NCBI GenBank assembly: GCA_900546225.1 | Contig: URBZ01000002.1 | Span: 78,411-142,410 of the forward strand | Length of the DNA stretch: 64,000 nucleotides | Reading direction: 5' to 3' | DNA from: an uncultured Rickettsiales bacterium | GTDB lineage: Bacteria > Pseudomonadota > Alphaproteobacteria > Rs-D84 | Part shown: positions 16,123 to 46,315 of the stretch, in pieces | Numbering within the stretch: the first letter of the stretch is position 1 | Layout of the letters: every line of letters begins with the position of its first letter | Notes under the pieces: generated by a model | Database searches by the model: none | Told to the model about the DNA's origin: nothing | Seen by the model: only the letters and a program-made list of their open reading frames with translations | Position numbers and translations under genes: made by a program

Positions 16123-16170
16123 AAACTATATATTGGTATCAAATAAACAAAATAACCACTAGATATTGTG
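16123..16170 (+). promoter_or_regulatory. two candidate NrdR boxes (AAACTATATATTGGTA and ACCACTAGATATTGTG), 32 bp apart, upstream of nrdD
   Basis: Imperfect 16-bp palindromes resembling the acaCwAtATaTwGtgt consensus, separated by three helical turns, 26 bp before the nrdD ATG. Confidence 0.3.
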
Positions 16171-16195
16171 TTTTTACAAAACAAGGGACAGAAAG

Positions 16196-18238
16196 ATGTC
16201 TGATGCAGAAAACGAAACAAAAATTCAGGTTATTCCAACGCTGACGACCAAATTGGTCGCGGTACAAAAGCGCGGTGGCGAAACTGTCCCGTTCGATTCC
16301 AAAAAGATATTTGATGCAATTAAAAAGGCCGTTGCGGTCACGGGTGAAATATCTGATGCGGACGTGGCAACAATTACCCAAAACGTTTTGAACACGTTGG
16401 ACGCCAAGTTCACAGACCGTGTGCCATCGGTTGAACAGATTCAGGAAACCGTGATTCAGGCACTGATGGATGCCAAGGCGTACAAGACCGCAGAATCATA
16501 TATCATATATCGCCAGAAACGCAGCGAAATTCGCGATTCATACGTTGATGCCGTAGAGGTGATTGAGGGTTACGTTGGCGGGTCAAACTGGCGCATCAAG
16601 GAAAATGCAAATGTTGGCTATTCCATTGGTGGGTTGATTTTGCGTACCAGTGAACGCGTAACGGCGGAATACTGGCTGAACCTGTATCCACGTGAAATTG
16701 CAGAGGCCCACAAAAACGCATCTATTCACATTCACGATTTGGGCTGGCTGACGGGTTATTGTGCGGGCTGGTCGTTGCGTGAATTGTTGTACGAGGGGTT
16801 CAATGGTGTTCCGGGGTATTTGCAATGCGAACCGGCGAAACATATGGCGACCGCGATTTCGCATATGGTGAATTTCTTGGGTACATTACAGAATGAATTT
16901 GCGGGTGCACAGGCATTTTCGTCCGTGGACACGTATCTGGCACCATACGTCAGAATTGATAATCTGACATATGCCGATGTTAAAAACGCAATGCAGACGT
17001 TGATATTTAACTGTGCTGTGCCATGTCGTTGGGGTACGCAGACACCATTTATCAACTTTACATTCGATTGGACATGTCCAAAGGATTTGCGTGATCAGCA
17101 TCCATTTATTGGTAAAAAACAGGTTGATTTTACATATGGTGACCTGCAAAACGAAATGGACACAATCAACAAGGCGTTCTTGGAGGTTATGACCGAAGGT
17201 GACGCGTTGGGTCGTCCGTTTACGTTCCCAATTCCAACATATAACATTACCGACGATTTCCCATGGGAACACCCAAATGTCAAACCTTTGTTTGATTTGG
17301 CGGCAAAATACGGGATTCCAAATTTCCAGAATTTCTTAAATTCTGACCTGAATCCGACCGACGTGCGTTCTATGTGTTGCCGTCTGCGTTTGGACGTGCG
17401 CGAATTGTTAAAGCGCGGTGGTGGCCTGTTTGGGTCGGCGGAAAAGACCGGTTCAATCGGTGTTGTTACAATCAATTTGGCGCGATTGGGCTATGTACAT
17501 CGTGGCGATCGCGACGGGCTGTTCCGTGAACTGAAACGTTTGCTGGACATGGGTCGTGATTCACTGGAAATCAAGCGCAAGATTATTACCAAGAATATGG
17601 AACGCGGACTGTATCCGTTCACACGCCGTTACTTGGGCAACTGGGATCATCACTTTTCAACCATTGGCGTAAATGGTGCGAATGAAATGGTTCGCAACTT
17701 TACAGGCGACCGCGAAAACATCGCAACCCCAATGGGCAAGAAATTGGTTCTGGACGTGATGGATTTCATTCGTGAAAATCTGGCAAATTTCCAAGAACAA
17801 ACAGGCAACCTGTATAATTTGGAAGCCACCCCAGCCGAGGGTTGTTCATATCGCTTTGCCAAGACCGATGTGAAAAATTTCCCAGACATCATCACGGCGG
17901 GTACACATGATGCACCATACTATACCAATTCGACACAGTTGCCGGTGAACTTTACAGATGACCCATTTGTCGCGTTGGAACACCAAGAAGAATTACAGCG
18001 CAAATATACTGGTGGCACGATGTTGCACCTGTATATGGGCGAACCTGTATCCAGTGGCGAAGCCGCCCAGAAAATCGTACGTACAATCTTTGAAAACTAC
18101 AAGATTCCGTACATGACATTGACACCGACATTCTCGATTTGCCCGAAACACGGGTATTTGCCGGGGCGTCATGAATTCTGTCCGAAATGCGACGCAGAAG
18201 TTGTCGCAAATCAGAACTGTGAATGTAATCACGAATAA
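16196..18238 (+). CDS. nrdD: anaerobic ribonucleoside-triphosphate reductase (class III RNR) large subunit; appears to end after the Zn-ribbon, before the glycyl-radical motif
   Basis: N-terminal ATP-cone (VAVQKRGGETVPFDSKKI). Catalytic-domain motifs CCRLRLD and GSIGVVTINLARLG. C-terminal CPKH...CPKC...NCEC. Start moved to ATG 16196 (RBS AAGGGA). Confidence 0.85.
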   Translation: MSDAENETKIQVIPTLTTKLVAVQKRGGETVPFDSKKIFDAIKKAVAVTGEISDADVATITQNVLNTLDAKFTDRVPSVEQIQETVIQALMDAKAYKTAESYIIYRQKRSEIRDSYVDAVEVIEGYVGGSNWRIKENANVGYSIGGLILRTSERVTAEYWLNLYPREIAEAHKNASIHIHDLGWLTGYCAGWSLRELLYEGFNGVPGYLQCEPAKHMATAISHMVNFLGTLQNEFAGAQAFSSVDTYLAPYVRIDNLTYADVKNAMQTLIFNCAVPCRWGTQTPFINFTFDWTCPKDLRDQHPFIGKKQVDFTYGDLQNEMDTINKAFLEVMTEGDALGRPFTFPIPTYNITDDFPWEHPNVKPLFDLAAKYGIPNFQNFLNSDLNPTDVRSMCCRLRLDVRELLKRGGGLFGSAEKTGSIGVVTINLARLGYVHRGDRDGLFRELKRLLDMGRDSLEIKRKIITKNMERGLYPFTRRYLGNWDHHFSTIGVNGANEMVRNFTGDRENIATPMGKKLVLDVMDFIRENLANFQEQTGNLYNLEATPAEGCSYRFAKTDVKNFPDIITAGTHDAPYYTNSTQLPVNFTDDPFVALEHQEELQRKYTGGTMLHLYMGEPVSSGEAAQKIVRTIFENYKIPYMTLTPTFSICPKHGYLPGRHEFCPKCDAEVVANQNCECNHE

Positions 18239-21248: not shown

Positions 21249-22610
21249 TTAAGCATTTATGATTTCGGTCACTCGACGCGGTACGTCTGCAATGGCGACG
21301 CGTTCCTGACTCATATCATCACGATGACGCAATGTTACAGTACCGTCTTCCAGCGTCTGGTGGTCAACCGTTATGCAAACTGGTGTACCGATTTCATCGT
21401 GACGACGATAGTTTTTACCGATGTTACCGGAATTTTCCAGCTCAATACGGCCGATATGCAGCGCACGCAATGCATTTTCAATATCGTTTGCGGCCTGAAC
21501 CAATTCGGGTACATTACGCGCCAATGGAATAACCGCCGCCTTGACCGGTGCAAGTTTTGGTTTCAATTTCAAAACCGTGCGGGTCTTGCCATCTGGCAAT
21601 GTTTCTTCGGTATATGCCTCTATCATAACTGCCAACATTGCGCGGTTCACGCCCATTGCGGTTTCAATGACGAATGGAATAAAACTTTCGCCCGTCTGGG
21701 GATCAGAATACGCCAATTTAACCGTACTGTCGTGATTTTCCATGACATGCGCAGAAATATGAAATTCATTTTGCGCCTTGGTATGCGAACCCAAATCAAA
21801 GTCCTGACGGTTGTGAACACCTTCGACCTCGTCAAAGCCATCTGGGAATGCGTATTCGATGTCACCCGCGGCCTTGGCATAATGGGCCAATTTTTCGTGT
21901 GGTGTGAAACGCAATTTGTCCGCAGGAATGCCCAGCACATTTACCCACCATGCCATACGCGTCTTCTTCCATTCTTCGAAATATTTCGCATCATCGGCAG
22001 GATTGATAAAATACTGCATTTCCGCCTGTTCAAATTCGCGCATACGGAATACAAATCCACGTGGGGAAATTTCGTTACGGAATGCCTTGCCAATTTGGGC
22101 AATACCAAACGGCAATTTATGTGGGCACGCGTCCAAAACGTTTTTGAAATTCACATATGTTGTGGTCGCTGTTTCTGGGCGCAGGTACGCGTTGATTGCA
22201 CCATCGGCGGTTGCACCAATGGACAGCCCCATCATCAACTGGTACGCGCGTGGGTCGGTTAAATCCGTGCTGCCACAATTATCACACTTGGTTGGATCTT
22301 TCATTTTATCCTGACGCATGCGCGCGCCACATTTTTTGCATTCAACCAATGGATCAGAAAAACTGCCCTCGTGCCCTGAATATTTCCACATCAGTCGGTT
22401 GGAAATCAACGCCGCATCCAGCCCTTCGATATCATTACGGGAATAAATCATGGCGTTCCACCATGCGTTCTTAATATTCTTCATCAATTCAACACCGTAT
22501 GGGCCGTAATCGTATGCGCCACCCAAACCGCCATAGATTTCAGAACCTGTGAAAATAAAACCGCGCCGCTTGCACAATGCGACGATATCATTTACTGATT
22601 TTGCTGGCAT
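21249..22610 (-). CDS. glyQS: glycine--tRNA ligase (dimeric alpha2 type)
   Basis: 453 aa; class II motifs, N-terminus VALCKRRGFIFTGSEIYGGLGGAYDYGPYG. Confidence 0.85.
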   Translation of the reverse strand: MPAKSVNDIVALCKRRGFIFTGSEIYGGLGGAYDYGPYGVELMKNIKNAWWNAMIYSRNDIEGLDAALISNRLMWKYSGHEGSFSDPLVECKKCGARMRQDKMKDPTKCDNCGSTDLTDPRAYQLMMGLSIGATADGAINAYLRPETATTTYVNFKNVLDACPHKLPFGIAQIGKAFRNEISPRGFVFRMREFEQAEMQYFINPADDAKYFEEWKKTRMAWWVNVLGIPADKLRFTPHEKLAHYAKAAGDIEYAFPDGFDEVEGVHNRQDFDLGSHTKAQNEFHISAHVMENHDSTVKLAYSDPQTGESFIPFVIETAMGVNRAMLAVMIEAYTEETLPDGKTRTVLKLKPKLAPVKAAVIPLARNVPELVQAANDIENALRALHIGRIELENSGNIGKNYRRHDEIGTPVCITVDHQTLEDGTVTLRHRDDMSQERVAIADVPRRVTEIINA

Positions 22611-25171: not shown

Positions 25172-26038
25172 ATGACACAGGTTGCAATTTTGTATATTGC
25201 GCTCGGTCGCTATACGGTGTTTTGGGACGATTTTTACAAATCGTGTGAAAGATATTTGACACCGTGTGACAAACATTACTTTATCTGGACGGACAGTCCG
25301 ACGTCCGCGATGCGTGGTAAAAACATCACGATTATCCCGACACAAAAACGTGGGTGGCCGTATGACAGCCTGATGCGTTTTGAGATGTTTCTGGGGGTGG
25401 CAGATAAACTGAAACAGTTTGATTATGTTTTCTTTTTTAATGCGAATTTCCAATTTTATAACCCGGTGGATTTGGCAGAAATCACCCCGCGCGAATGGCA
25501 TAATGGACTGGTTGCCGGGTTGCATCCGGGGCCGTCCGGCGATATCCATCAGGTCCCAGATAATTACCCGTATGAACGGCGTCCTGAATCCACCGCGTGC
25601 GTGCCGTATTGGCGCGGCCGCCACTATGTGTGCGGTGCATTTAATGGGGGAACGGCGGCCGCGTTTCTGAAAATGTGCCGCGTGCTGGCGAAAAACGTCC
25701 AAACCGATTTGCAACATAATATTGTGGCATGTGTTGATGATGAATCACACCTGAACGCATATTTGGTTGAACATCCGGATTTCTTGCTGTGCGGCCGCGC
25801 ATATGGTTTCCCCGAAGGAGCAATAAAACATATCCCGCGGCGCCAACGCGTAATGATAAAAATAATCAGTCGGGCCAAGGACAGCACAAAATACGGCGGA
25901 ACACAGTGGTTGCGCGGAAATACGGATAAAAAGATGTCAACCAGTATATTCGCAGCGATTATTCGTAAATTGTTGCGCGTGGTTGCATGCATGGTGCCGT
26001 CACAAAAATTGCGTCGTAAAATTCGCGGTCTGTATTAA
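25172..26038 (+). CDS. putative glycosyltransferase-like protein (hypothetical)
   Basis: 288 aa from ATG 25172 (RBS AAGGGGGA). The family assignment is a guess from WDDF...YFIWTD...YVFFFNANFQ hydrophobic/acidic patterning. Confidence 0.35.
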   Translation: MTQVAILYIALGRYTVFWDDFYKSCERYLTPCDKHYFIWTDSPTSAMRGKNITIIPTQKRGWPYDSLMRFEMFLGVADKLKQFDYVFFFNANFQFYNPVDLAEITPREWHNGLVAGLHPGPSGDIHQVPDNYPYERRPESTACVPYWRGRHYVCGAFNGGTAAAFLKMCRVLAKNVQTDLQHNIVACVDDESHLNAYLVEHPDFLLCGRAYGFPEGAIKHIPRRQRVMIKIISRAKDSTKYGGTQWLRGNTDKKMSTSIFAAIIRKLLRVVACMVPSQKLRRKIRGLY

Positions 26039-26158
26039 AGAAAACACTTGCCAACCGGGTCACATTAAACTATACTGCCACCACACAGCATTAAAACATG
26101 CGACGTGGTGCGAACAAAACCGCAGGTTTGAAAGACCGGCGGAAAAAGAAACAGTTTC

Positions 26159-26248
26159 GGATGGGTGGCAGAGCGGTCGAATGCGACGGTCTTGAAAACC
26201 GCTGAAGGGGCAACTCTTCCGGGGGTTCGAATCCCTCCCCATCCGCCA
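26159..26248 (+). tRNA. tRNA-Ser (anticodon TGA), type II, CCA encoded
   Basis: Acceptor GGATGGG/CCCATCC, discriminator G, CCA. Anticodon loop CTTGAAA. Long variable arm. T-arm GGGGGTTCGAATCCCTC. Followed by terminator hairpin CATCCCGTGG..CCACGGGATG + T-run (26258-26292). Confidence 0.8.
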
Positions 26249-26476
26249 GGAAAATTAGACATCCCGTGGTAATCCCACGGGATGTTCTTTTTCGCCCCAT
26301 TTCCGGCGGTTTTTCTGCACGATGTTACCGGTGTATATTATCCCTTGCACTCAATCCGCCCAAAATCCAGCAACTTATATACCTTGCCCAAAATCTCGAC
26401 GCCAGTTTCTTGTTGTTTTTTGTGGATTTTATAATAATTTGTTTTAACATAAAACGAATAAAACGACAGAAATCAA

Positions 26477-27451
26477 ATGACACAAGATAATAAAGTAATA
26501 AAATTAGAAACTTTTTCCACTCATTTCTTTACAAATGGGGCAGACAAGCATTTTATAATAGCGGAAGATTATAAAATATTTATAGAAAGCATAGAACAGA
26601 TACTAGCGAACATAAATACGGAATTACTGAAAGGACAAGCAAAGTACGAATTATGCATTGTTGCAAATAAAGAAGGTGGTTTTTGGAGTACTGTTGGTGT
26701 GCTTGGGACTTTAATAAGTATACCTGCTGCATTGGATTCAGAACTTATACATGGTTTCTATACAGGATTAACTGGACACGATTATGATTTAAGAAGTGTC
26801 GGTGAAAATGTTGGAAGTTTTTTACGAGATGCAACTGTCGGTATTTTTTCTAAAAATGCGACAGAACTGTCGAAAATTATACCCAAAGAATTGAATCTAG
26901 ACAAAGCGATTTATGCTAAAAATGGGTTCTATCGTATGTGCGCTACAAATCAAGACATTAGGGGGGTGTCTTTTTCTGATAGCAATGAGCCAGAAATTCA
27001 AAAGAAAGATTTTGTAAATTATATTGTGTCCGATACCGACAAAAATTTGCCAGCAGAACAGTTTATAGATATTGTTACAATTGTTAAATCGGTAAATGTA
27101 AAAAGTGATGCTAAATGGTCGGTAAAAATTGGCGAAAGTGCCAAACCTAAATCTGTAGAAATGTTAGACGACGAATTTAAAAAAGAATTCCTATCTGGCC
27201 GATATGCAATAAAACAGACCGAACAAGATGACACGATGACGGTTTTATTAGAAAAAAAGAAAAAATATGTCAACGGACATGAACAAGACGCAGGTTTATC
27301 CATAGTAAAAGTATATAAATTTAATGATACACAAATATTACCAATTCCATCAGATATCGCTCATAAAACACGCCGTCCAAAAATAGATTTGTTTAATTTT
27401 CAAGATAATATTACAACTGATTCTTCCATGCAATCTGAAACAAATCGTTAA
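26477..27451 (+). CDS. hypothetical protein (first gene of the AT-rich island)
   Basis: 324 aa ORF, low GC, no recognisable motif. Confidence 0.4.
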   Translation: MTQDNKVIKLETFSTHFFTNGADKHFIIAEDYKIFIESIEQILANINTELLKGQAKYELCIVANKEGGFWSTVGVLGTLISIPAALDSELIHGFYTGLTGHDYDLRSVGENVGSFLRDATVGIFSKNATELSKIIPKELNLDKAIYAKNGFYRMCATNQDIRGVSFSDSNEPEIQKKDFVNYIVSDTDKNLPAEQFIDIVTIVKSVNVKSDAKWSVKIGESAKPKSVEMLDDEFKKEFLSGRYAIKQTEQDDTMTVLLEKKKKYVNGHEQDAGLSIVKVYKFNDTQILPIPSDIAHKTRRPKIDLFNFQDNITTDSSMQSETNR

Positions 27452-27710
27452 CGTTGATTTTGAATTTCCCTGACAAGATTTCGTTAATCTTGTCCGGATT
27501 CATATATGCCAGGTCGAGGTGGCGATAAAACTGACGTGGGGATGTGTGTTCGGATGCGATGATTTTGTCTGCATCGCCACATTCTTCATATGTTTCCCGA
27601 TACTTCCATGCGATGGCAAAGGCTTTGACGATCAGGAGATTATTATCGGTGACGGTCAAGACTCTGTTCTTGGATTTATTAAACACTGTGTTCACATACT
27701 GACGTAGCAC
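27411..27710 (-). pseudogene. N-terminal fragment of a P4-type tyrosine integrase (arm-binding DUF4102-like region only)
   Basis: 99 aa; LLIVKAFAIAWKYRETY...SPRQFYRHLDLAYMNPDKI matches the LYLxVxPxGxKxWxxRYR...LGxYPxxSLAxAR N-terminal integrase pattern. No catalytic domain follows. Confidence 0.3.
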
Positions 27711-27979
27711 AATCGGTATGGTTAAAACTATTCTGTTGCCGCCACAGCTGTAGAATTGGCCGGTAAATCACCAGAAATGACCAAGAAATTATTGGCAGCA
27801 TCGGTGGGAAATAATGTACTGATTGCAACCGGTTACACCATATACCATTACTTTGCTTAGCATTTAAAAGTTTATTATAATCTTATAATCATCAATAAGT
27901 TATGCCAGAAGCCGCGATATAATTTTGTTGCAATTGTTCGTTTTTGTACTAGTATCAAGTGGGTGGGGAGAGGACAACT

Positions 27980-29152
27980 ATGAAAGGTGCCACAATGCTT
28001 TTACGCAATAATTTATTTCGTTTTGAGAAGCCGGACAATTTCCAAAATCTTTCAACTTCCAGATTAATGAATGGTTTGGTTTATGATTTTAACGATCCTT
28101 ATATTCCATTTTTTACACCAATTGGTACACGACTGTTCAACAACATAGAAAATATATTTAAACAAAATGCTATGCGTATTGATTGTAATGAGGTTATTAT
28201 TCCACAATTAATGACCACAGAGTTATTGACCCAAGGTCAAGAAATTGGTGAATTGTTTGGGCGTAAAGTAATGCATCTATCAGGTACGATGGCAGAGTTC
28301 CATCTTCTTACATCTCCGGAGATGATGTTTATAAATATGTTGAAAAAAAATAACATAGAGAGTAATGCGCTGCCAATACATTACTATTTTGTATCTAATT
28401 TTTTCAGAGATATGCATGATCCAAAAAACATACTTCGAACTAAGCAATTGCGTGTTATTGCAGGTATTTCTTTTGACAAAACACAGAATGATAGATTGAA
28501 GACAGAAAATAAACTGTTACAAACTTTGCACAACACGTTTGTTGATTGTAAAGTCCCATTCTTAGCAGAGTATGGCTCTAGTGGATTTACGTGCGAATAT
28601 TTTTACATGAATTCCAAAGAAACAGAAAACTATATAATTCCAAGCATAAATCCGCACAAGAAAACAAAAGCTCTCAGCTTCGCAATGATTTATGATTATG
28701 GTCAAGAATGTCCATTTGATGTTTTACACAAAAATTCAGTAACAGGGCTAAAAGACAAAACCTTTATGACATCATACGCAATAAGCGCCCAGCGATTACT
28801 TTATGTAATAATGGATTCGTGCAGAGATAGCAAAGGCTTTTCAATGCCATCTAATATCCGTCCATACGATGTCGCGCTCATAACAAATGAACAGCAATCG
28901 GATATAGCGCAGAAAATGGCGCGAGATTTGTCATGCAGTGGTATCTCTTCCTATATAGACAATATGTTTACTAAGGCGCACGTTAAGCGTCTGGATGTTG
29001 CCGATTACATAGGAGTCGGATTAAAAATTGTTAATAAGAATGATAAGTTTACTGTCTTTAACCGCGATGGAGAGATGCTGATAACAGGCTTCGCACCAGA
29101 CCTGATTATTTCAGCGGTTAAGGATTCGATTATAGCACAAAAACAAAAATAG
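27980..29152 (+). CDS. class IIa aminoacyl-tRNA synthetase paralog (ProRS/HisRS/ThrRS-like catalytic core plus a C-terminal anticodon-binding-like domain)
   Basis: 390 aa from ATG 27980 (RBS GGAGAGGA). Motif-1-like VIIPQLMTTELLTQGQ. Motif-2-like FFRDMHDPKNILRTKQLRVIAGISFD. Motif-3-like SYAISAQRLLYVIMD. C-terminal PYDVALITNEQ...GISSYIDN...DYIGVGLKIVNK..FTVFNRDGE resembles the HGTP anticodon-binding fold. Confidence 0.55.
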   Translation: MKGATMLLRNNLFRFEKPDNFQNLSTSRLMNGLVYDFNDPYIPFFTPIGTRLFNNIENIFKQNAMRIDCNEVIIPQLMTTELLTQGQEIGELFGRKVMHLSGTMAEFHLLTSPEMMFINMLKKNNIESNALPIHYYFVSNFFRDMHDPKNILRTKQLRVIAGISFDKTQNDRLKTENKLLQTLHNTFVDCKVPFLAEYGSSGFTCEYFYMNSKETENYIIPSINPHKKTKALSFAMIYDYGQECPFDVLHKNSVTGLKDKTFMTSYAISAQRLLYVIMDSCRDSKGFSMPSNIRPYDVALITNEQQSDIAQKMARDLSCSGISSYIDNMFTKAHVKRLDVADYIGVGLKIVNKNDKFTVFNRDGEMLITGFAPDLIISAVKDSIIAQKQK

Positions 29153-29221
29153 TTAAACTGCTTTGCGAGAAGAAAGATACTGTAATTTTCAGAAACAGTA
29201 TAGTGGCTTTTTGAAAAACCA

Positions 29222-29252
29222 GAAAATGCTTGGTAATAATTACATTACTACC
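29222..29252. terminator. bidirectional terminator between the convergent aaRS-like gene and the MccF-like gene (GCTTGGTA...TACCAAGC flanked by A/T runs)
   Basis: 8-bp inverted repeat with A-run upstream and T-run downstream. Confidence 0.5.
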
Positions 29253-29271
29253 AAGCAAAATTTTTACCCGC

Positions 29272-30312
29272 TTAGATAACAGCATTTTCTAAGATAGAAA
29301 ACTTTTTATTTATCATATCCATCTCTGCCAATGCGCCATATGGCAGGTAAAACATAGGGTCTGTGTGTCCGAAATCCATTTGGGTTATAATAGGCATATC
29401 ACTACGACCACATTCGCGTGTGATTGTCAGTAATGCATTTTCGTAAATTGATAAATTGTCTCTGCTGCCTTTTGCCCGTCCCATAATAATCCCCGATATT
29501 CTGTTAAGGATTCCTTGGGCTGCTAAACTGCGCAACCAATACAAAAGCATATCTTCTGGTGGCAAGCTTTCGGACGTTTCAAGAAATAAAATTGCTTTAT
29601 CAAATTCATCCGTTTTAGGAAATAGCTCTGTCCCTGTCAGCATCAATAATACCTCAAAACAACCACCAATCAATCTGCCACGCACTACAGAATTACCTTG
29701 CAAATAATTTGGCCCAGTATATGGATACAGTTTCCGTTTGATTTTTAAATTTTCAGGATATGTCCAATCTAAAAATTCGTCTGTCCAACCATCGGTTGCG
29801 GGTAAAATTTCCCCGATGACATCAGTAGCAAATAATGTTTTCTTTGTTTGCTCTATTGTATATGGAAACAAGCTGACATTTTCGCCGAACCCAGCCATTA
29901 CGGTAGGTCCATAGATAGAGCTTAATCCCGCTTTATAGCACATAAAGTGAATTGCGGTTGGATCAGAATACCCCAAAAAAATCTTTGGATTATTTTTGAT
30001 GATATTCAAATCCAGATATGGGAATAATCTGATACAATCATCACCACCAATGATAGAAATAATCGCTTTTACTTCTGGATTTTCAAACGCCCACATCAGG
30101 TCTTTTGCACGTTCTTCGGGATGTTCATATAAATAATCAATTGATTGCAAAGCGTTCGGAGTTTCTATCACTTTTAGCCCAAAGTTATTTTCTATTTGAC
30201 TTTTCCCCCATTGATATTGATGCGGGAAACGACTTGCTGAACCATAAGAGCAACTAATTGCTGCAACTGTATCGCCAACTTGCAGGGCTTTGGGTTTTAT
30301 TAATGTTTTCAT
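29272..30312 (-). CDS. S66-family serine peptidase, MccF-like (microcin C7 self-immunity / LD-carboxypeptidase fold)
   Basis: 346 aa (MccF is about 344, LdcA about 304). Motifs VGDTVAAIS, IIGGDD, GYSDPTAIH (nucleophile Ser), ...MDFGHTDPMFYLPYGALAEMD (catalytic His). RBS AAGGGAGAA. Confidence 0.75.
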   Translation of the reverse strand: MKTLIKPKALQVGDTVAAISCSYGSASRFPHQYQWGKSQIENNFGLKVIETPNALQSIDYLYEHPEERAKDLMWAFENPEVKAIISIIGGDDCIRLFPYLDLNIIKNNPKIFLGYSDPTAIHFMCYKAGLSSIYGPTVMAGFGENVSLFPYTIEQTKKTLFATDVIGEILPATDGWTDEFLDWTYPENLKIKRKLYPYTGPNYLQGNSVVRGRLIGGCFEVLLMLTGTELFPKTDEFDKAILFLETSESLPPEDMLLYWLRSLAAQGILNRISGIIMGRAKGSRDNLSIYENALLTITRECGRSDMPIITQMDFGHTDPMFYLPYGALAEMDMINKKFSILENAVI

Positions 30313-30345
30313 GCTGTTTTCTCCCTTGGTTTTATATTCGGAGCA

Positions 30346-39434: not shown

Positions 39435-41735
39435 TTATATTTTTATACTCAATGCGTTAAAATGCTTTTTGTCTGTACTTTTGATAAAATGGAACAAATC
39501 TGCAATTTCGTCTCGGCCAGCCACATAGCTAAAGTTCTGACATCCGGAAATCGCGCCAACACCATTCGAATGAGAAAACGCATTGGCCACGCCCCATAAA
39601 TAGTGAAATCTATTATTATCATTTTCTGTCAGACAGTTAAACTTTTTCAAATACGAATTTGTATTAGGAATCTTTGCATCCAAGTAAGTTTCTAGTACCC
39701 GTCGAATAAGATTACCTATGCATACGTCTGGGGGTGTTCGTTTATTCTGATAAAATTCATTTAATTTCTGTACAAGATCCAAATATTCAGAAGTACTGTT
39801 TTGTAAGTAATCACTAGCCATTCTAATCTTTGAACCCACTGATGCTATTTTTTGTATTTCAAATATCTTGAAATTATTCTTATCTATATGTTTCATAGCT
39901 TCTCTAATTTTTACAAAAAAATAGAAATTATGTGTCAGCAATATTACTTGCTCACATTTTTTTATAGTGGTAACTATCCAGTCACCTATTTGGAATAGAT
40001 TCTTACTATCCAAGCTAGAAACAGGATCATCAATAACTATTATTGGACTTTCCTTTCCGGCTTTTTTCATCGATTGAATTGGAATGATAAAATACAAAAA
40101 TGCGATAAGAGTTTTCTCACCTTCGCTTAGATTTTTTGCATCAACGAATGTACCATCGTCAAGCTTTCTTTGTATTGTATAAACATTCTCCCTTGGGCCC
40201 TCTCTAAAAGAGATATTATTTAATGCAGATTGTTCCAATGCTTTATTGATCAACATAATAATTTTAGACTTCTCGGCCAACTTACGCTTACAATCCAGTT
40301 TCTGCTTTTCTAAATCACCTAATCTTTGTTTGTCTGTATCCCTATCTTTTGTTTTTTGTTTTATTTTTTCATCCATTATATTTAATGTCTGTGAATTCTT
40401 TTGGATATAAAACAGAACCACTTGCTGCTTATATTTTACTTTTCTACTTTCCAGAGAATCTATAATTGCATTGTGTTGTTGTATTATAACCTCTATCGTC
40501 TTTATCGATTTTATTAAACATTGTAAATTATCATATATCTGATTTTCGTACGTTATAGAATACGTTGTCTCCAAATTAAGTGCTTTTTTTGCAACAGATT
40601 CATCTAATTTTTCTAAGAGTGGTTTCAGCTCTATCAATATGTTATTTATTTGATTCTTTTCTGCAATATACCTATCATACGCACTGTCCCTAGATAATTT
40701 AGAAGCATCCGGCAAAGATATTTCAACTTGTTCTATAAGTTCCCTATTATCTCTCAAGACATCTATTAACGTCCAAAAAGCTTTTTCTTGCATATCAAAA
40801 ACAACATCTTTCTTGACCAACTCTTTTATTTCTTGATAACGCTGCTGCCAGAAATCATCGGCAATCTTTTGATTACAAAACAAACAATTAGAATGATTAC
40901 CCCGGTGCAATGCCAAGCCACTTTCTAACCACTGTTTTATATTCTCTGTTCCAGGATTGGAATTTCTGGATAACGATGTCTGCAAAATATCTATTATCGA
41001 TTTATACGCATCAATATTGAAATCTGCATCAAAGTTTCTTAATTTATTGACTATATTTAATTCTATTTTCGTTTTTATTGGTTCAATAAAAATATCTCTT
41101 GCGTGATTTTTTTCTTCTTCACTAATGCGTTCCTCTTTATCCTGTTGCACACGTTCTAAATCTATCTTTAATTGCTTTTGTGTATACTTCTGCGGGCTAT
41201 CAATATGCAAGCAAATACGTATTTCTTTTGCAACATTACTTAGAAAATCATTTTTTTGTTGTTCTAGCTTTTGCAGCTCTATATTTGACTTTAAGTCCGT
41301 ACCACCACCAACAACAAGGGTTTCAATATCCGCATTGATTTTATTTAGTTTTTCTGTAATTTTTATATTTTGATCACCAATAATAATATCAACTTTGTTT
41401 GCTCGAGATTTTTTTAAGGAAAGATTATTCTCTATAAAATCCGTATTAAAAACTTTTATTTTATCTATCAATGGCCCATCTACTACAGAACGAAAAACCT
41501 TTCTTTTTCCGCCAACTTTGTAACACAACTCGCCTTTAGAAAAATTGTACAGCACGTTATTTTCATTGTCTACGTATTGCATTTGACCACGACTGATACA
41601 TTCAAACATTCGACTAAGAGTTGTTTTCCCAGTGCCATTGTAACCATAAAACAGATTGTATTTTGCTAATTTTACTGTTTCTGACTGCTTACGAAAACTA
41701 CCTATGTTAGAAATCTTTTGAATAGCATCTATCAT
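39435..41735 (-). CDS. RloC/PrrC-family AAA ATPase with coiled-coil insertion (predicted anticodon-nuclease-type abortive-infection protein)
   Basis: 766 aa. Walker A GYNGTGKTT. Long coiled coil with CLFCNQ (CxxC, zinc-hook-like). ABC signature NLSEGEKTLIAFLYF. Walker B IIVIDDPVSSLD. H-loop LLTHNFYF. C-terminal about 160 aa with IRRVLE (RxxxE), then His about 33 aa later in RFHYLW (PrrC-like ACNase spacing). Confidence 0.55.
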   Translation of the reverse strand: MIDAIQKISNIGSFRKQSETVKLAKYNLFYGYNGTGKTTLSRMFECISRGQMQYVDNENNVLYNFSKGELCYKVGGKRKVFRSVVDGPLIDKIKVFNTDFIENNLSLKKSRANKVDIIIGDQNIKITEKLNKINADIETLVVGGGTDLKSNIELQKLEQQKNDFLSNVAKEIRICLHIDSPQKYTQKQLKIDLERVQQDKEERISEEEKNHARDIFIEPIKTKIELNIVNKLRNFDADFNIDAYKSIIDILQTSLSRNSNPGTENIKQWLESGLALHRGNHSNCLFCNQKIADDFWQQRYQEIKELVKKDVVFDMQEKAFWTLIDVLRDNRELIEQVEISLPDASKLSRDSAYDRYIAEKNQINNILIELKPLLEKLDESVAKKALNLETTYSITYENQIYDNLQCLIKSIKTIEVIIQQHNAIIDSLESRKVKYKQQVVLFYIQKNSQTLNIMDEKIKQKTKDRDTDKQRLGDLEKQKLDCKRKLAEKSKIIMLINKALEQSALNNISFREGPRENVYTIQRKLDDGTFVDAKNLSEGEKTLIAFLYFIIPIQSMKKAGKESPIIVIDDPVSSLDSKNLFQIGDWIVTTIKKCEQVILLTHNFYFFVKIREAMKHIDKNNFKIFEIQKIASVGSKIRMASDYLQNSTSEYLDLVQKLNEFYQNKRTPPDVCIGNLIRRVLETYLDAKIPNTNSYLKKFNCLTENDNNRFHYLWGVANAFSHSNGVGAISGCQNFSYVAGRDEIADLFHFIKSTDKKHFNALSIKI

Positions 41736-41752
41736 CGTGTAACTTCTTATGC

Positions 41753-43078
41753 TTATTTTAGATCCTCAAATGCTTTCGCCATTGTCGGGTTATTTCTTGT
41801 CAAACGTTTTATTGATAAATTCTGCGCTTTATCATTAGCCAAACGCAGATTATTTTCAGTCCCGAGTAAGGCATCCTTTATTTTTTGCAAGTGATCTATT
41901 GTCTTATCAATTTCTTCTATAGCCTTCTTGAATTTGTCGCTGGCTGTTTTATAATTCCGACCAAAGCGATCTCTAAACTCATTCATTTCTGCTTCAAAAT
42001 TTGAGACATCGATATTGGCCTGCTTGTATTCTGCAATTTGTTGTTTGTATTGAACAGAATTCAGTGCCGCATTCCGTAACAATGTTATAATTGGAATAAA
42101 ACATTGTGGTCTTACAACATACATTTTTGGATATTTGTGCGACACATCAACAATACCAGCATTATATAATTCATTGTCAGATTCCAGCAACGAAACCAAA
42201 ACAGCATATTCACAATTTTTATCCTTTCGGTCTTTATCAAGTTCTTTGAAAAAATCTTCATTTTTGTGTTTTGTGGCTGTTGTATCCATCTCGTTTTTCA
42301 TTTCAAACATAATGGATATAAATTCCGTTTTTTTATCAACATCTGCATAATCACGAAATATAAAATCGCCCTTACTTCCATTCTTGACTTCGTTGTCTTT
42401 TTCGAAATATGCATTTGGGAATGCTGCAGGCCGCATCCGTTCAAATTCAATATGACAGTGTTGTTCCAATGTCTCTCCTACCATTTTTGTGGACATTTTT
42501 GTTTTCATGTCCTTGTATAGCGCAATTTCGACATCTTTTGCCTTTAATTGTGCATCATATTCACTTTTTAATGTTTGTTGTTTTAATTCAATATCTTGTG
42601 CGGCCGCCTTTACTTCGCCCTGCAAGGCAAGAATTTGCGCGTCTTTTTCAAAAAGCATATCCTTTGATTTACTTAATGCCTTTTCTACTGCAATTACCTT
42701 TTCCTGCTCTGATGCATTTATACGTGCTTTGAATTCGACAATTTGTTCATTCAAACATGCAATAGACTTTGCTTTGTCCGCTTCTATACCCGCAATTTTT
42801 AACTTCATTTCAGCCGCAGCATCGCGCTCTGCCGATGAAATTTTCTCTTTGAGTGTTGCTATTTCTTCTTTTAACGCAGAAATTGATAATTCTTTATCGT
42901 TTTTTGCCTGTTCTTTTAATAAGTCGATTTCACTTTTTGATTGCGCCTTATATTGTTGTAATCGCAACGCAACCTCCTTGTCAAACTCAACATTTTTAAT
43001 TTGACTTACAATCGCTGCATAACCCGATTCATCAATAGTGAATTGCGTATTACATTTCGGACATTTTATCTCGTGCAT
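41753..43078 (-). CDS. DUF2130 family protein (N-terminal zinc ribbon, long coiled coil, C-terminal nuclease-like domain)
   Basis: 441 aa from ATG 43078 (RBS AAGGAGAAATAT). N-terminus MHEIKCPKCNTQFTIDESGYAAIV is typical of DUF2130. 17 nt upstream of the RloC-like gene. Confidence 0.65.
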   Translation of the reverse strand: MHEIKCPKCNTQFTIDESGYAAIVSQIKNVEFDKEVALRLQQYKAQSKSEIDLLKEQAKNDKELSISALKEEIATLKEKISSAERDAAAEMKLKIAGIEADKAKSIACLNEQIVEFKARINASEQEKVIAVEKALSKSKDMLFEKDAQILALQGEVKAAAQDIELKQQTLKSEYDAQLKAKDVEIALYKDMKTKMSTKMVGETLEQHCHIEFERMRPAAFPNAYFEKDNEVKNGSKGDFIFRDYADVDKKTEFISIMFEMKNEMDTTATKHKNEDFFKELDKDRKDKNCEYAVLVSLLESDNELYNAGIVDVSHKYPKMYVVRPQCFIPIITLLRNAALNSVQYKQQIAEYKQANIDVSNFEAEMNEFRDRFGRNYKTASDKFKKAIEEIDKTIDHLQKIKDALLGTENNLRLANDKAQNLSIKRLTRNNPTMAKAFEDLK

Positions 43079-43088
43079 ATATTTCTCC

Positions 43089-43421
43089 TTAAATCTTGGA
43101 CACATCTAGGTCAACATGCGCGACACACTGCTGCTCACATTTGTGTTGACACTGTTCATCTGTGTACCATTGACCATCACGCACAACCAAGCGAGACATT
43201 TTTGCAATTTTAAAGCAACGCCACGACGCAGGTATTTCCGTTGGTATCTGCCCTTTGCTGCTTTCTCCAGCAAACTGATACCCTAGCAACTGTTCTTGGC
43301 CTTGGTCATTCAATCCGATTATATGTGGACACACTTCTCGATGAAATCCGTCATAATCAAAAAACAATTGCTGTTTGTGCTCAATTGCACCCCTAATAAC
43401 CATATAGTTTTCAGACGCCAT
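43089..43421 (-). CDS. small WYL-like domain protein (no HTH)
   Basis: About 110 aa from MASENY (RBS AAGAGGAAAAAGC). QLFFDYDGFHREVCPHIIG...LLGYQF...IPASWRCFKIAKMSRL fits the WYL-fold pattern (R.v.P..l...W.R.FrldRI). Stop is 10 nt before the DUF2130 start. Confidence 0.35.
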   Translation of the reverse strand: MASENYMVIRGAIEHKQQLFFDYDGFHREVCPHIIGLNDQGQEQLLGYQFAGESSKGQIPTEIPASWRCFKIAKMSRLVVRDGQWYTDEQCQHKCEQQCVAHVDLDVSKI

Positions 43422-44915: not shown

Positions 44916-44922
44916 AGACACA

Positions 44923-45351: not shown

Positions 45352-45352
45352 T

Positions 45353-46267: not shown

Positions 46268-46315
46268 TTAATTGTCCTTTGTTTGTATCCTTTCCCACAC
46301 AGGTGATATAGTGCA

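What the first reader, a model, noticed from the sequence alone, without database searches (positions are those of the whole stretch)
27980..29152. Compact divergent class IIa aaRS homolog convergent to the operon
About 390 aa, with recognisable but degenerate motifs 1, 2 and 3 and a C-terminal domain resembling the ProRS/HisRS/GlyRS anticodon-binding fold. There is no editing domain. The housekeeping glyQS is elsewhere in the window. This could be a resistant or decoy target copy, a tRNA-dependent tailoring enzyme, or a HisZ-like regulatory paralog.
Basis: inference. Interest (0 to 1): 0.55.

Follow-up and report, generated by a model that had tools for sequence, protein, structure and literature searches.

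The report
ProRS-derived enzyme of agrocin-like cassette
This gene encodes a shrunken, re-purposed copy of prolyl-tRNA synthetase that always travels with partner genes matching the core of the agrocin 84 antibiotic pathway, so it most likely helps build a nucleotide-type inhibitor of protein synthesis and does not charge tRNA.

Summary
The ORF is real: 27995 (or 27980/27959) to 29152, + strand, 385-397 aa. A high-confidence model (pLDDT 95) has a prolyl-tRNA synthetase fold, with catalytic core, anticodon-binding-type domain and no editing domain.

It is not a working ProRS. It scores 85 bits against a 558-bit family cutoff. It lacks the adenine-N6 glutamate, the Glu/His that hold the metal and alpha-phosphate, five residues of the proline-binding loop, and the first Arg of the RPR loop that reads the tRNAPro acceptor stem.

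It lies in a portable 5.6-kb cassette (27839-33421) inside a low-GC island at tRNA-Ser. The partners are an AsnRS-core paralogue 45% identical to AgnA ("agrocin 84 synthetase"), a methyltransferase 45% identical to AgnB1, a second methyltransferase, and an MccF-type S66 hydrolase (29% to AgnC5). The compact ProRS-like family matches the AgnC1 family by profile-profile comparison (91%, E 1e-6).

The quartet recurs from Alphaproteobacteria to Xenorhabdus and Streptomyces. It often sits beside an extra LeuRS gene, as with AgnB2 in pAgK84.

Best reading: a biosynthetic component of a minimal agrocin-84-like pathway. It is neither housekeeping nor a resistant ProRS. Its exact reaction is unknown.

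The parts
27995..29152 (+). Compact ProRS-derived paralogue (ProRSL; counterpart of AgnC1). Alternative upstream starts at 27980 (ATG) and 27959 (GTG).
   Evidence: ORF. The best NCBIfam hits are ProRS models, at 84.6 bits against a cutoff of 558. PDB phmmer gives 2i4l at E 4e-14. The AF2 model has pLDDT 95.2 and reaches TM 0.80-0.81 to R. palustris and E. faecalis ProRS. Family signature. hhalign against the AgnC1 family gives 91%, E 1e-6. pN/pS 0.12.
29227..29257 (.). Hairpin between the convergent genes (terminator-like).
   Evidence: 14-bp stem followed by a T run, found by the consensus scan. This is a consensus match only.
29272..30312 (-). S66 serine hydrolase of the MccF type (AgnC5 counterpart).
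   Evidence: Pfam S66 N- and C-terminal domains. E 3e-103 to B. anthracis Ba3275, about 1e-35 to E. coli MccF, and only 1e-7 to 1e-16 to LdcA enzymes. 29% identity to AgnC5, E 3e-39. The conserved GYSD, ETSE and GHTDP motifs are kept; that these hold the Ser/Glu/His catalytic triad is from memory.
30346..31236 (-). Class I SAM-dependent methyltransferase (MT296), an accessory member of the cassette.
   Evidence: Pfam Methyltransf_25/12/11. Present in L007, L017-20, L009 and L014; in the last two it sits directly upstream of ProRSL on the same strand. No clear agn orthologue.
31238..32068 (-). Class I SAM-dependent methyltransferase (MT276), orthologue of AgnB1.
   Evidence: Pfam. 44.8% identity to AgnB1 over 270 aa, E 1e-74. 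Always adjacent to the AgnA-like gene.
32086..33090 (-). AsnRS catalytic-core paralogue without an anticodon-binding domain (AsnAL), orthologue of AgnA 'agrocin 84 synthetase'.
   Evidence: PF00152, E 8e-33. NCBIfam 'asparagine synthetase A', 245 bits, below the cutoff of 389. 44.9% identity to agnA of pAgK84 over the full length, E 8e-90. Class IIb motifs 2 and 3 and the GE..G.G.R segment are intact.
27839..33421 (.). Portable five-gene cassette.
   Evidence: 98.5% identical over 5584 bp to L017/L018, where the flanking genes are different.
26159..26248 (+). tRNA-Ser(TGA) at the edge of the low-GC island that carries the cassette.
   Evidence: ARAGORN and Rfam. GC drops from about 0.47 to about 0.36 between 26 and 46 kb. 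The L017 copy lies downstream of a tRNA-Ser(GGA).

Best explanation
The gene encodes a neofunctionalised ProRS derivative. It is one of four co-inherited proteins: an AgnA-like AsnRS core, an AgnB1-like SAM methyltransferase, an AgnC1-like ProRS derivative, and an AgnC5/MccF-like S66 hydrolase. Together these form the conserved core of agrocin-84-type gene clusters. In this gut alphaproteobacterium the core plus one extra methyltransferase forms a 5.6-kb mobile cassette.

Shown: the ProRS fold; purifying selection; the cassette and its orthology to agnA, agnB1 and agnC5; the profile-level match to AgnC1; the loss of ProRS-specific catalytic and tRNA determinants; and the recurrent LeuRS neighbour in relatives.

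Inferred: the cassette makes a non-hydrolysable aminoacyl-adenylate mimic (an N-acyl-phosphoramidate nucleotide like TM84), probably aimed at LeuRS. The ProRS-like protein uses its retained amino-group clamp (TXE), motif-2 Arg and motif-3 Arg to hold an amino- or hydroxy-acid next to an adenosine nucleotide, and forms or helps form the acyl-N link. It does not charge tRNAPro. The S66 hydrolase cleaves that same type of bond, either protecting the producer or processing an intermediate.
For: (1) Fold and origin. The 50 best listed structural hits are all ProRS, with TM 0.80-0.81, and the best HMMs are bacterial-type ProRS.

(2) It is not a canonical ProRS. It scores 84.6 bits against a cutoff of 558. 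Alignment with canonical P-type ProRS shows FRDE changed to FRDM, RPR to DPK, E-x-G-H to S-x-A-M, and a 5-residue deletion in the G.iGG loop. According to PMC13629369 these positions bind adenine N6, the ribose and the metal/alpha-phosphate, and shape the proline pocket. According to PMC11229370, the first Arg of RPR is needed for tRNAPro aminoacylation (270-fold to more than 1000-fold loss when mutated).

(3) The retained residues are TXE (S-P-E; Glu invariant), the motif-2 Arg and the motif-3 Arg, which are invariant or nearly so in 57 diverse members.

(4) Gene context. ProRSL occurs with S66 in every locus that has enough flanking sequence. It occurs with AgnA-like and AgnB1-like genes in most loci, down to 22% ProRSL identity and across Alpha- and Gammaproteobacteria and Actinomycetota. 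It is co-operonic with them in L015/16/22, L028 and L031.

(5) Orthology to pAgK84: AsnAL-AgnA 45%, MT276-AgnB1 45%, S66-AgnC5 29%. ProRSL family against AgnC1 family by hhalign: 91%, E 1.1e-6, 301 collinear columns.

(6) The review PMC8323819 independently notes that AgnC1 is remotely ProRS-like and a candidate for attaching the acyl moiety.

(7) LeuRS genes lie next to ProRSL in at least five different arrangements, two of them on plasmids. This points to LeuRS, not ProRS, as the target.

(8) pN/pS is 0.12.
Against: There is no biochemical evidence for any member, and the function of AgnC1 itself is unknown.

The AgnC1 link is visible only at profile-profile level; blastp, phmmer and hmmsearch find nothing, and a single-sequence hhalign is not significant.

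Loss of the Glu/His metal and alpha-phosphate ligands argues against ordinary ATP-dependent adenylation by this protein.

Retention of the anticodon-binding-type domain is unexplained.

The window's cassette has no LeuRS copy and no exporter, unlike pAgK84, Xenorhabdus and Streptomyces, so an antibiotic role is less secure here.

ProRSL also occurs without AgnA, in clusters with sulfotransferase, APS-kinase-like and NTP-transferase genes.

In L001-L003, ProRSL and S66 stay intact although AgnA and AgnB1 are gone and MT296 is truncated. That pattern also fits an immunity role.
Confidence: 0.6

Rival explanations
1. It is an aminoacyl-tRNA-dependent transferase, like AcmF in ascamycin or SbzA in SB-203208 biosynthesis. 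It binds a charged tRNA through its retained anticodon-binding-type domain and transfers the aminoacyl group onto the nitrogen of an AMP analogue sitting in the former ATP pocket.
For: AcmF is an aaRS-like protein that lost ATP and amino-acid activation residues, kept its tRNA-recognition domain, and makes an aminoacyl-sulfamoyl nucleoside (PMC12945691). ProRSL has likewise lost its metal/alpha-phosphate ligands but keeps the anticodon-binding-type domain, TXE and the two Arg residues. Some ProRSL clusters carry sulfotransferase, APS-kinase-like and aminotransferase genes reminiscent of nucleoside-sulfamate pathways. Many clusters carry a LeuRS that could supply charged tRNA.
Against: The first Arg of the RPR loop, which is essential for tRNAPro acceptor-stem recognition in P-type ProRS, is an invariant Asp in the window's subfamily. 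A ProRS-type anticodon domain would not be expected to read tRNALeu. The acyl group of agrocin 84 is a hydroxy acid, which is not carried on tRNA.
Confidence: 0.15
2. It is a non-catalytic binding protein. It would either be an immunity or decoy protein that sequesters the aminoacyl-adenylate mimic, or a HisZ-like regulatory or scaffold subunit for the AgnA-like enzyme.
For: The metal/alpha-phosphate ligands are lost, while the residues that clamp an aminoacyl-adenylate (TXE, motif-2 Arg, motif-3 Arg) are kept. ProRSL and S66 persist intact in L001-L003 after the AgnA and AgnB1 genes were lost, which resembles orphan immunity. ProRSL is the fastest-evolving cassette protein: 71% identity against 88-92% for MT276 and S66 between the window and L007.
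Against: Stoichiometric sequestration is a weak defence, and the cassette already carries a catalytic hydrolase. The gene is co-operonic with the biosynthetic genes in distant lineages. Conservation of active-site residues across 57 diverse members, together with pN/pS of 0.12, fits an enzyme. There was no HisZ/HisRS model hit and no hisG nearby.
Confidence: 0.13
3. It is a drug-resistant second ProRS that keeps translation going while the cell makes a ProRS inhibitor.
For: Resistant aaRS copies inside clusters for aaRS inhibitors are well known, for example AgnB2. The protein is ProRS-derived and sits in such a cluster.
Against: It fails the ProRS family cutoff by a wide margin. It lacks the first RPR Arg, the adenine-N6 Glu and E-x-G-H, and has a shortened proline-binding loop. 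The extra synthetase found in related clusters is LeuRS. None of the partner enzymes is predicted to handle proline.
Confidence: 0.05
4. It is simply the housekeeping ProRS of an organism with a reduced enzyme.
For: Insertion-less ProRS enzymes exist in Alphaproteobacteria (2i4l), and the host is an alphaproteobacterium.
Against: The gene lies in a low-GC island at tRNA-Ser. The identical cassette sits at other genomic sites. The word-indexed search of 5.8 billion proteins found 20 relatives. The cluster also contains a 246-aa member. The catalytic and tRNA determinants are missing.
Confidence: 0.02

Closest known systems
AgnC1 of the agrocin 84 (agn) cluster, plasmid pAgK84, Rhizobium rhizogenes K84
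   Same: About 400 aa. A remote ProRS-like fold with a catalytic core plus a C-terminal class IIa-type domain. It has an FRN-V type motif 2 without the Glu. It is encoded beside AgnA, AgnB1 (a SAM enzyme), an MccF-like S66 protein (AgnC5) and, in relatives of the window gene, a LeuRS. The two families match by profile-profile comparison at 91%, E 1e-6. Its function is equally unknown.
   Different: No pairwise sequence similarity is detectable. The motif-3 Arg appears to be Lys in AgnC1; this is my reading of the sequence printed and has not been checked structurally. The agn cluster has about 12 further genes (hydroxylase, radical-SAM, SDR, PEP-utilising enzymes, pump, resistant LeuRS) that the window cassette lacks.
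Bacterial (P-type) prolyl-tRNA synthetase, especially the insertion-less alphaproteobacterial form (R. palustris, PDB 2i4l)
   Same: Same fold and domain order, with TM 0.80-0.81. It shares the TXE loop, the motif-2 Arg, the motif-3 Arg, the Glu of the HEF segment, and the anticodon-binding-domain signatures (P..RPFD, DDR, AD.(I/L)G.P).
   Different: 17% identity. FRDE is FRDM, RPR is DPK, REF is KQL, E-x-G-H is S-x-A-M, and five residues are deleted from the G.iGG loop. It scores 85 bits against a 558-bit cutoff. It is encoded on a mobile cassette.
AcmF (ascamycin) and SbzA (SB-203208): aaRS-like enzymes that build aminoacyl-sulfamate or sulfonamide aaRS inhibitors
   Same: An aaRS scaffold re-used inside a cluster for an aaRS inhibitor. 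There is partial loss of activation residues with the tRNA-binding domain retained.
   Different: AcmF derives from AlaRS and SbzA from IleRS. Their use of aminoacyl-tRNA has been demonstrated. No such evidence exists here, and the acceptor-stem Arg is lost.
Microcin C system (MccB, MccD/E, MccF)
   Same: The predicted product class is an N-acyl-phosphoramidate nucleotide that mimics an aminoacyl-adenylate. An MccF-type S66 hydrolase and a SAM-dependent enzyme are in the cluster.
   Different: There is no ThiF/MccB-type enzyme in the cassette, no precursor peptide gene conserved upstream and no pump. The adenylating enzymes are aaRS-derived.
Known non-translational class II aaRS paralogues (HisZ, AsnA, EpmA/PoxA, amino acid:carrier-protein ligases)
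   Same: A class II core recruited to a reaction other than tRNA charging.
   Different: From general knowledge, those paralogues derive from HisRS, AsnRS/AspRS, LysRS or SerRS and mostly lost the anticodon-binding domain. This one derives from ProRS and keeps it.

Membership tests
Functional prolyl-tRNA synthetase (proS) | Scores above the curated whole-protein cutoff of a ProRS equivalog model | tested here: not met
   NF006625 84.6 bits against a cutoff of 558; NF008979 81.8 against 550; TIGR00409 76.7 against 306.7. Pfam PF00587 20.5 bits against 29.3.
Functional prolyl-tRNA synthetase (proS) | Class II catalytic fold followed by a class IIa anticodon-binding domain | tested here: met
   The AF2 model has pLDDT 95.2, and the 50 best listed Foldseek hits are all ProRS with TM up to 0.81.
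Functional prolyl-tRNA synthetase (proS) | TXE loop, motif-2 Arg and motif-3 Arg (contacts to the amino group, the carbonyl/alpha-phosphate and the adenine) | tested here: met
   S107-P108-E109, R138 and R267 (385-aa numbering) are invariant or nearly invariant in 57 family members. Residue roles are taken from PMC13629369.
Functional prolyl-tRNA synthetase (proS) | Motif-2 Glu that H-bonds adenine N6, and the E-x-G-H residues that bind the ribose and the metal/alpha-phosphate | tested here: not met
   FRDE is replaced by FRDM, and E-V-G-H by S-F-A-M. The same substitutions occur throughout the compact family.
Functional prolyl-tRNA synthetase (proS) | RPR motif-2 loop, whose first Arg recognises G72/A73 of bacterial tRNAPro | tested here: not met
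   The loop is DPK, and the Asp is invariant in the 14-member subfamily. Mutating this Arg costs 270-fold to more than 1000-fold in aminoacylation (PMC11229370).
Functional prolyl-tRNA synthetase (proS) | Full-length proline-binding loop (the G.iGG segment) | tested here: not met
   There is a five-residue gap relative to nine canonical ProRS sequences. I equate this segment with the proline-binding loop by position; no structural superposition was made.
Functional prolyl-tRNA synthetase (proS) | Pro-tRNAPro formation; the only or essential proS of the genome | not testable with these tools
   Only a 64-kb window is available. Indirect evidence against: the island location, and the same cassette at other genomic sites.
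AgnC1-like component of agrocin-84-type clusters | Sequence homology to AgnC1 | tested here: inconclusive
   Pairwise and HMM searches are negative. A single-sequence hhalign is not significant. Profile-profile comparison of A2 against A3 gives Prob 91%, E 1.1e-6, with 301 collinear columns.
AgnC1-like component of agrocin-84-type clusters | Clustered with orthologues of AgnA, AgnB1 and the MccF-like AgnC5 | tested here: met
   45%, 45% and 29% identity over the full lengths. The same quartet is found in 10 or more distinct loci.
AgnC1-like component of agrocin-84-type clusters | Cluster carries a resistant LeuRS (AgnB2) and an export pump (AgnG) | tested here: not met
   There is no LeuRS or transporter in the cassette, and no LeuRS-sized ORF in the 64-kb window. 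LeuRS is present next to relatives in L015/16/21/22/26/28.
AgnC1-like component of agrocin-84-type clusters | Required for production of an N-acyl-phosphoramidate nucleotide | not testable with these tools
   This needs genetics and chemistry. Even for agrocin 84 the pathway is unknown.
Self-resistance aaRS copy (AgnB2, MupM type) | Retains full catalytic and tRNA-recognition determinants of the target synthetase | tested here: not met
   See the ProRS rows above.
HisZ-like regulatory paralogue | HisRS-derived and partnered with hisG | tested here: not met
   There was no HisZ or HisRS model hit at E up to 1 for this protein. No hisG is in the neighbourhood.
aa-tRNA-dependent aaRS-like transferase (AcmF type) | Lost activation residues but kept the tRNA-binding domain | tested here: inconclusive
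   The metal ligands are lost and the anticodon-binding-type domain is kept, but the acceptor-stem Arg is also lost.
MccF-type S66 hydrolase (neighbouring gene 29272-30312) | S66 fold with conserved active-site motifs; closer to MccF than to LdcA | tested here: met
   The GYSD, ETSE and GHTDP motifs are kept; assigning them to the Ser/Glu/His triad is from memory. E about 1e-35 to E. coli MccF and 3e-103 to Ba3275, against 1e-7 to 1e-16 for LdcA enzymes.

The most novel reading that the evidence does not exclude
The four conserved proteins could form a complete, ribosome-independent route to a microcin-C/TM84-type warhead, in which each has a chemical role.

The AgnA-like enzyme keeps the AsnRS-type Q..LE and GE..G.G.R residues; their roles in binding Asn are from memory. 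It would convert asparagine plus ATP into an aspartamidyl-adenylate (N-P bond), as MccB does on a peptide. The methyltransferase might promote succinimide formation.

The MccF-type S66 enzyme would cleave this intermediate to release adenosine 5'-phosphoramidate.

The ProRS-derived protein would then acylate that nitrogen with a leucine-like acid, giving a non-hydrolysable leucyl-adenylate mimic.

In this gut alphaproteobacterium the exporter-less cassette sits in a defence-gene island. It might therefore act inside the cell (for example as abortive-infection-type translation arrest) and not as a secreted antibiotic.
Probability: 0.1. Interest if true: 0.85.

Novelty: new variant of a known kind. 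Interest (0 to 1): 0.64.

Why it matters
Agrocin 84 has been used commercially for biocontrol, yet its biosynthetic pathway is still described as unknown (PMC8323819). In particular, nobody knows how the N-acyl-phosphoramidate bond of its leucyl-adenylate mimic is made.

This window shows that the aaRS-like pair AgnA and AgnC1-like, together with a methyltransferase and an MccF-type hydrolase, is a deeply conserved and portable core. It is found from gut and rumen Alphaproteobacteria to Xenorhabdus and Streptomyces plasmids.

Here it is stripped down to five genes in 5.6 kb. That is a much simpler system than the 17-gene agn cluster for working out the chemistry.

It also defines a sizeable, unannotated family of ProRS-derived proteins: 76 representatives at 50% clustering with E below 1e-30. 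The family has a consistent altered active-site signature.

Finally, it suggests that animal-gut commensals may make aaRS-targeting nucleotide compounds.

Tried and rejected
- Rfam scan of 25500-35000 at E up to 1 found only the tRNA-Ser. There is no T-box or riboswitch that could indicate amino-acid specificity.
- I searched 700 bp upstream of the AgnA-like gene in nine loci for a conserved MccA-like precursor ORF. Nothing is shared.
- PADLOC found no defence family for any of the five cassette proteins, beyond generic methyltransferase-domain hits.
- blastp, phmmer and family HMMs for ProRSL against AgnC1 were all negative. A single-sequence hhalign was not significant. Only the comparison with an AgnC1 family alignment succeeded.
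- The first AF2 model, from 14 sequences, was mediocre (pLDDT 68.5). It was superseded by the 57-sequence model.
- The exact-sequence look-ups of two other window ORFs (16166-18238 and the cas9 ORF) failed, probably because of start-codon choice. The host was instead inferred from GlyRS similarity.
- A literature search for Ba3275 found nothing. A search for newer AgnA/AgnC1 biochemistry found only the 2021 review and one aaRS-drug-target review.
- I considered the J-domain protein that follows ProRSL in several relatives as an obligatory partner and rejected the idea. It is absent from the window and from L009, L013-L017, L022 and L028.
- I could not check the whole source genome for a canonical proS or leuS.
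Full report
**Observation.** An uninterrupted ORF runs from 27959 (GTG) to 29152 on the + strand. The start shared by most homologues is ATG 27995, 'MLLRNN', giving 385 aa. Pfam sees only a sub-threshold class II core (PF00587, 20.5 bits against a cutoff of 29.3). NCBIfam ranks ProRS models first, but far below their cutoffs: 84.6 bits against 558, and 81.8 against 550 for the insertion-less alphaproteobacterial model. ThrRS and SerRS models give trace scores and HisRS and HisZ give none. PDB sequence search gives only ProRS entries, best R. palustris 2i4l at E 4e-14.

A first AlphaFold model from 14 sequences was mediocre (pLDDT 68.5). A second model from 57 family members is very confident (pLDDT 95.2, pTM 0.93). 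Its 50 best listed Foldseek matches are all ProRS, with TM 0.80-0.81 to the R. palustris and E. faecalis enzymes at 13-17% identity. The parent family is ProRS. The gene is under purifying selection. Against a 98.5%-identical copy elsewhere there are 13 synonymous and 6 non-synonymous changes, pN/pS about 0.12.

**Setting in the window.** GC content falls from about 0.47 to about 0.36 between roughly 26 and 46 kb, starting just after a tRNA-Ser(TGA) at 26159-26248. The gene is convergent with a tightly packed minus-strand operon:
- 32086-33090: an AsnRS catalytic core without an anticodon domain. The 'asparagine synthetase A' models give 245 bits, below their cutoff.
- 31238-32068 and 30346-31236: two class I SAM methyltransferases.
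- 29272-30312: an S66 hydrolase.

The S66 protein is of the MccF type. It matches B. anthracis Ba3275 at E 3e-103 and E. coli MccF at about 1e-35, against 1e-7 to 1e-16 for murein LD-carboxypeptidases. The conserved GYSD, ETSE and GHTDP motifs are kept. [quoted passage not shown] The window's housekeeping GlyRS (alpha2 type) is at 21249-22610. Its closest named relative, at 89% identity, is from Candidatus Enterousia, an uncultured gut alphaproteobacterium.

**The cassette is portable and conserved.** Window 27839-33421 is 98.5% identical to metagenomic contigs in which the five genes lie between different neighbours, one of them downstream of a tRNA-Ser(GGA). The word-indexed search found 20 relatives. 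Their contexts were examined:
- The same five genes occur at 71% ProRSL identity in a related species (L007).
- In gut Alphaproteobacteria MAGs (L009/L014, 43%) the second methyltransferase has moved to just upstream of the ProRS-like gene.
- In Micavibrio-like genomes (L015/L016, 33-35%) there is a single operon: AsnRS-core, methyltransferase, a second S66 and the ProRS-like gene.

An exhaustive profile search of 1.84 billion representatives shows that the compact family (370-410 aa) is much larger. It has 76 representatives with E below 1e-30, grading into canonical 560-580 aa ProRS at about 100 bits. A member only 22% identical (L024) still sits with the methyltransferase, the AsnRS core and S66. 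A scan of all fetched loci finds S66 next to the ProRS-like gene wherever the flanks are long enough, and the AsnRS core plus methyltransferase in most of them.

**Link to agrocin 84.** A tblastn search of plasmids with the AsnRS-core protein hit agnA, annotated 'Agrocin84-synthetase', on pAgK84 at 44.9% identity over the full length (E 8e-90). The record's gene order is agnA, a SAM methyltransferase (AgnB1), agnB2 (resistant LeuRS), agnC1 (hypothetical), C2, C3 (methyltransferase), C4, agnC5 ('MccF-like protein'), C6 and C7. MT276 is 45% identical to AgnB1 (E 1e-74) and the S66 protein is 29% identical to AgnC5 (E 3e-39).

The ProRS-like protein shows no pairwise or HMM similarity to AgnC1. 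However, an alignment of 57 compact ProRS-like proteins matches an alignment of six AgnC1 homologues by hhalign with probability 91%, E 1.1e-6, over 301 collinear columns spanning both domains. The review PMC8323819 states that:
- the agrocin 84 pathway is unknown;
- AgnA was proposed to make the phosphoramide bond;
- AgnB2 is a LeuRS about 1000-fold less sensitive to the toxic moiety TM84, a leucyl-adenylate mimic with a non-hydrolysable P-N bond.

**More relatives.** The Xenorhabdus bovienii CS03 megaplasmid carries, in order: an AgnA-like gene (46%), a methyltransferase (46%), S66, a nucleoside phosphorylase, two VOC-type genes, leuS (42% to AgnB2), a ProRS-like gene (29% to the window's; 400 bits to the family HMM) and an MFS transporter. 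A Streptomyces plasmid carries an AgnA-like gene, a methyltransferase, FAD/molybdopterin enzymes, a ProRS-like gene and S66 in one operon.

A LeuRS gene lies next to the ProRS-like gene in at least five different arrangements (L015/16/22/23, L021, L026, pAgK84 and Xenorhabdus). Where these clusters carry a spare synthetase, it is LeuRS and not ProRS.

**What the protein can and cannot do.** I aligned family members with nine canonical P-type ProRS sequences (consistent with the HMMER alignments). I read the result against the ligand contacts reported for M. tuberculosis ProRS (PMC13629369) and the tRNA determinants in PMC11229370.

Retained:
- the TXE loop that clamps the substrate amino group (S-P-E here; the Glu is invariant in 57 sequences);
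- the motif-2 Arg that binds the carbonyl and alpha-phosphate;
- the motif-3 Arg that stacks on the adenine;
- the Glu of the HEF segment;
- the signatures of the anticodon-binding-type domain.

Lost, throughout the family:
- the motif-2 Glu that H-bonds adenine N6 (FRDE becomes FRD-M/I/V);
- the E-x-G-H residues that hold the ribose and the metal/alpha-phosphate (S-x-A/G-M here);
- five residues of the G.iGG loop that closes over proline;
- in the window's subfamily, the first Arg of the RPR loop, which is an invariant Asp. Mutating this Arg in canonical enzymes costs 270-fold to more than 1000-fold in tRNAPro charging while leaving activation nearly intact.

This is a stable, selected remodelling and not decay. 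The site should still hold an amino- or hydroxy-acid beside an adenosine nucleotide. It is unlikely to activate proline with Mg-ATP in the normal way or to recognise the tRNAPro acceptor stem.

By contrast, the AgnA-like neighbour keeps all class IIb catalytic residues and the AsnRS-type Q..LE and GE..G.G.R segments. The assignment of those residues to Asn recognition and Mg binding is from my memory of the AspRS/AsnRS literature and was not verified here.

**Interpretation.** The best-supported reading is that this gene is the AgnC1-type component of a minimal agrocin-84-like pathway. The cassette is predicted to make an aminoacyl-adenylate mimic with an acyl-N link to a nucleotide. By analogy with its relatives the target is probably LeuRS. 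The MccF-type hydrolase would act on the same kind of bond.

I consider membership in this gene-cluster type well supported. The specific role (forming or helping form the acyl-N bond) is an inference; overall confidence is 0.6. Alternatives:
- An AcmF-like aminoacyl-tRNA-dependent transferase. The precedent is in PMC12945691. It would explain the retained anticodon-binding-type domain and the lost metal ligands, but not the lost acceptor-stem Arg.
- A non-catalytic binder, whether immunity, decoy or regulatory. This is favoured by the L001-L003 loci, where the ProRS-like and S66 genes stay intact after the AgnA and AgnB1 genes were lost.
- A resistant ProRS. This is disfavoured by the missing determinants and by the LeuRS association.
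- A housekeeping ProRS. This is very unlikely.

**Caveats.** Unlike pAgK84, Xenorhabdus and Streptomyces, the window's cassette has no LeuRS copy and no exporter, so its product and biological role may differ. The island also carries defence-type genes, and an intracellular role cannot be excluded. ProRS-like genes also occur without AgnA, in clusters with APS-kinase-like, sulfotransferase, NTP-transferase, PEP-utilising, NUDIX and aminotransferase genes plus S66. AgnA-like genes occur without a ProRS-like gene, next to an ATP-grasp ligase in B. pseudomycoides or fused to a GNAT domain in Pantoea. No conserved precursor peptide, riboswitch or T-box was found, and PADLOC does not recognise the cassette. 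I could not check whether the genome has a canonical proS.

**Novelty.** The agn cluster and the ProRS-like nature of AgnC1 are in the literature. According to the 2021 review, its BLASTP searches of RefSeq found agn-like clusters in Ensifer sp. ENS09 and in Actinobacteria. In the literature I could search, I found no description of the points below:
- the compact ProRS-derived family with its altered active-site signature;
- the conserved four-gene core;
- its occurrence as a five-gene mobile cassette in gut Alphaproteobacteria.

I rate this a new variant of a known kind, of above-average interest. It offers a small, tractable system for an unsolved biosynthetic problem.

Noticed in passing
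window 44022-44916, 45019-49264: A type II CRISPR-Cas locus. The array has about 13 copies of the 36-nt repeat GTTATAGGTTGCTTCTCAAATCGTCTTTGATATAAT. Next to it are cas2 (45019-45351, -), cas1 (45353-46267, -) and a compact 982-aa cas9 (46316-49264, -; TIGR01865, 567 bits). cas1 and cas2 were identified from their translations only.
   Followed up: partly
window 39435-43105 (-) and 26477-27451 (+): The low-GC island carries defence-type genes. These are an AAA_13 ATPase matching the PADLOC candidate PDC-S06 (E 3e-91), followed by a DUF2130 protein. The 324-aa ORF just upstream of the cassette gives a weak PDC-S42 match (E 1e-5).
   Followed up: partly
window 35422-38953 (+); L001/L007 11171-12400; L004/L011/L012 11155-12399: The island encodes a J-domain protein (37041-37727), a MORN-repeat protein (35422-36405) and a 408-aa protein with no family hit (37727-38953), all of unknown role. 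In several related loci an unrelated 409-414 aa protein with a C-terminal J domain directly follows or overlaps the ProRS-like gene. It is absent from the window.
   Followed up: partly
L004/L005/L006/L012 (12400-21100); L025: ProRS-like genes also occur without an AgnA-like gene. They sit next to GATase, PPDK/PEP-utilising, methyltransferase, APS-kinase/zeta-like, NTP-transferase, sulfotransferase, NUDIX, aminotransferase-HAD and S66 genes. This gene set resembles nucleoside-sulfamate pathways.
   Followed up: no
L015/L016 12361-14929; L021 336-2894; L022 10368-12899; L026 1425-1904; L028 12813-15278: A LeuRS gene lies beside the ProRS-like gene in several different arrangements, including on the Xenorhabdus bovienii megaplasmid. 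These LeuRS proteins are only 37-42% identical to AgnB2. Whether they are second, resistant copies was not tested.
   Followed up: partly
L029 (B. pseudomycoides pBTZ_2); L030 (Pantoea agglomerans plasmids): AgnA-like genes occur without a ProRS-like or S66 gene. In Bacillus the order is methyltransferase, AgnA-like gene and an ATP-grasp ligase, with ahcY nearby. In Pantoea there is a GNAT-AgnA fusion next to an MFS transporter.
   Followed up: no
L001-L003 versus L007 (13521-16266): In one lineage the AgnA-like and AgnB1-like genes are missing and the second methyltransferase is truncated to 214 aa, while the ProRS-like, J-domain and S66 genes stay intact. The truncated gene is followed by an RsmB/F-type methyltransferase gene instead.
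   Followed up: partly
L024 1-2778 and 15883-16287: Next to a very distant copy of the quartet lie two ThiF-FeeM gene pairs and a HIT-family hydrolase. MccB of microcin C is reported as a ThiF-like adenylyltransferase (title of PMC12250964), and HIT hydrolases give resistance to peptide-nucleotide antibiotics.
   Followed up: no
window 21249-22610 (-): The housekeeping GlyRS is the dimeric alpha2 type. It is 89% identical to that of Candidatus Enterousia intestinigallinarum, which places the window in an uncultured gut alphaproteobacterium.
   Followed up: yes
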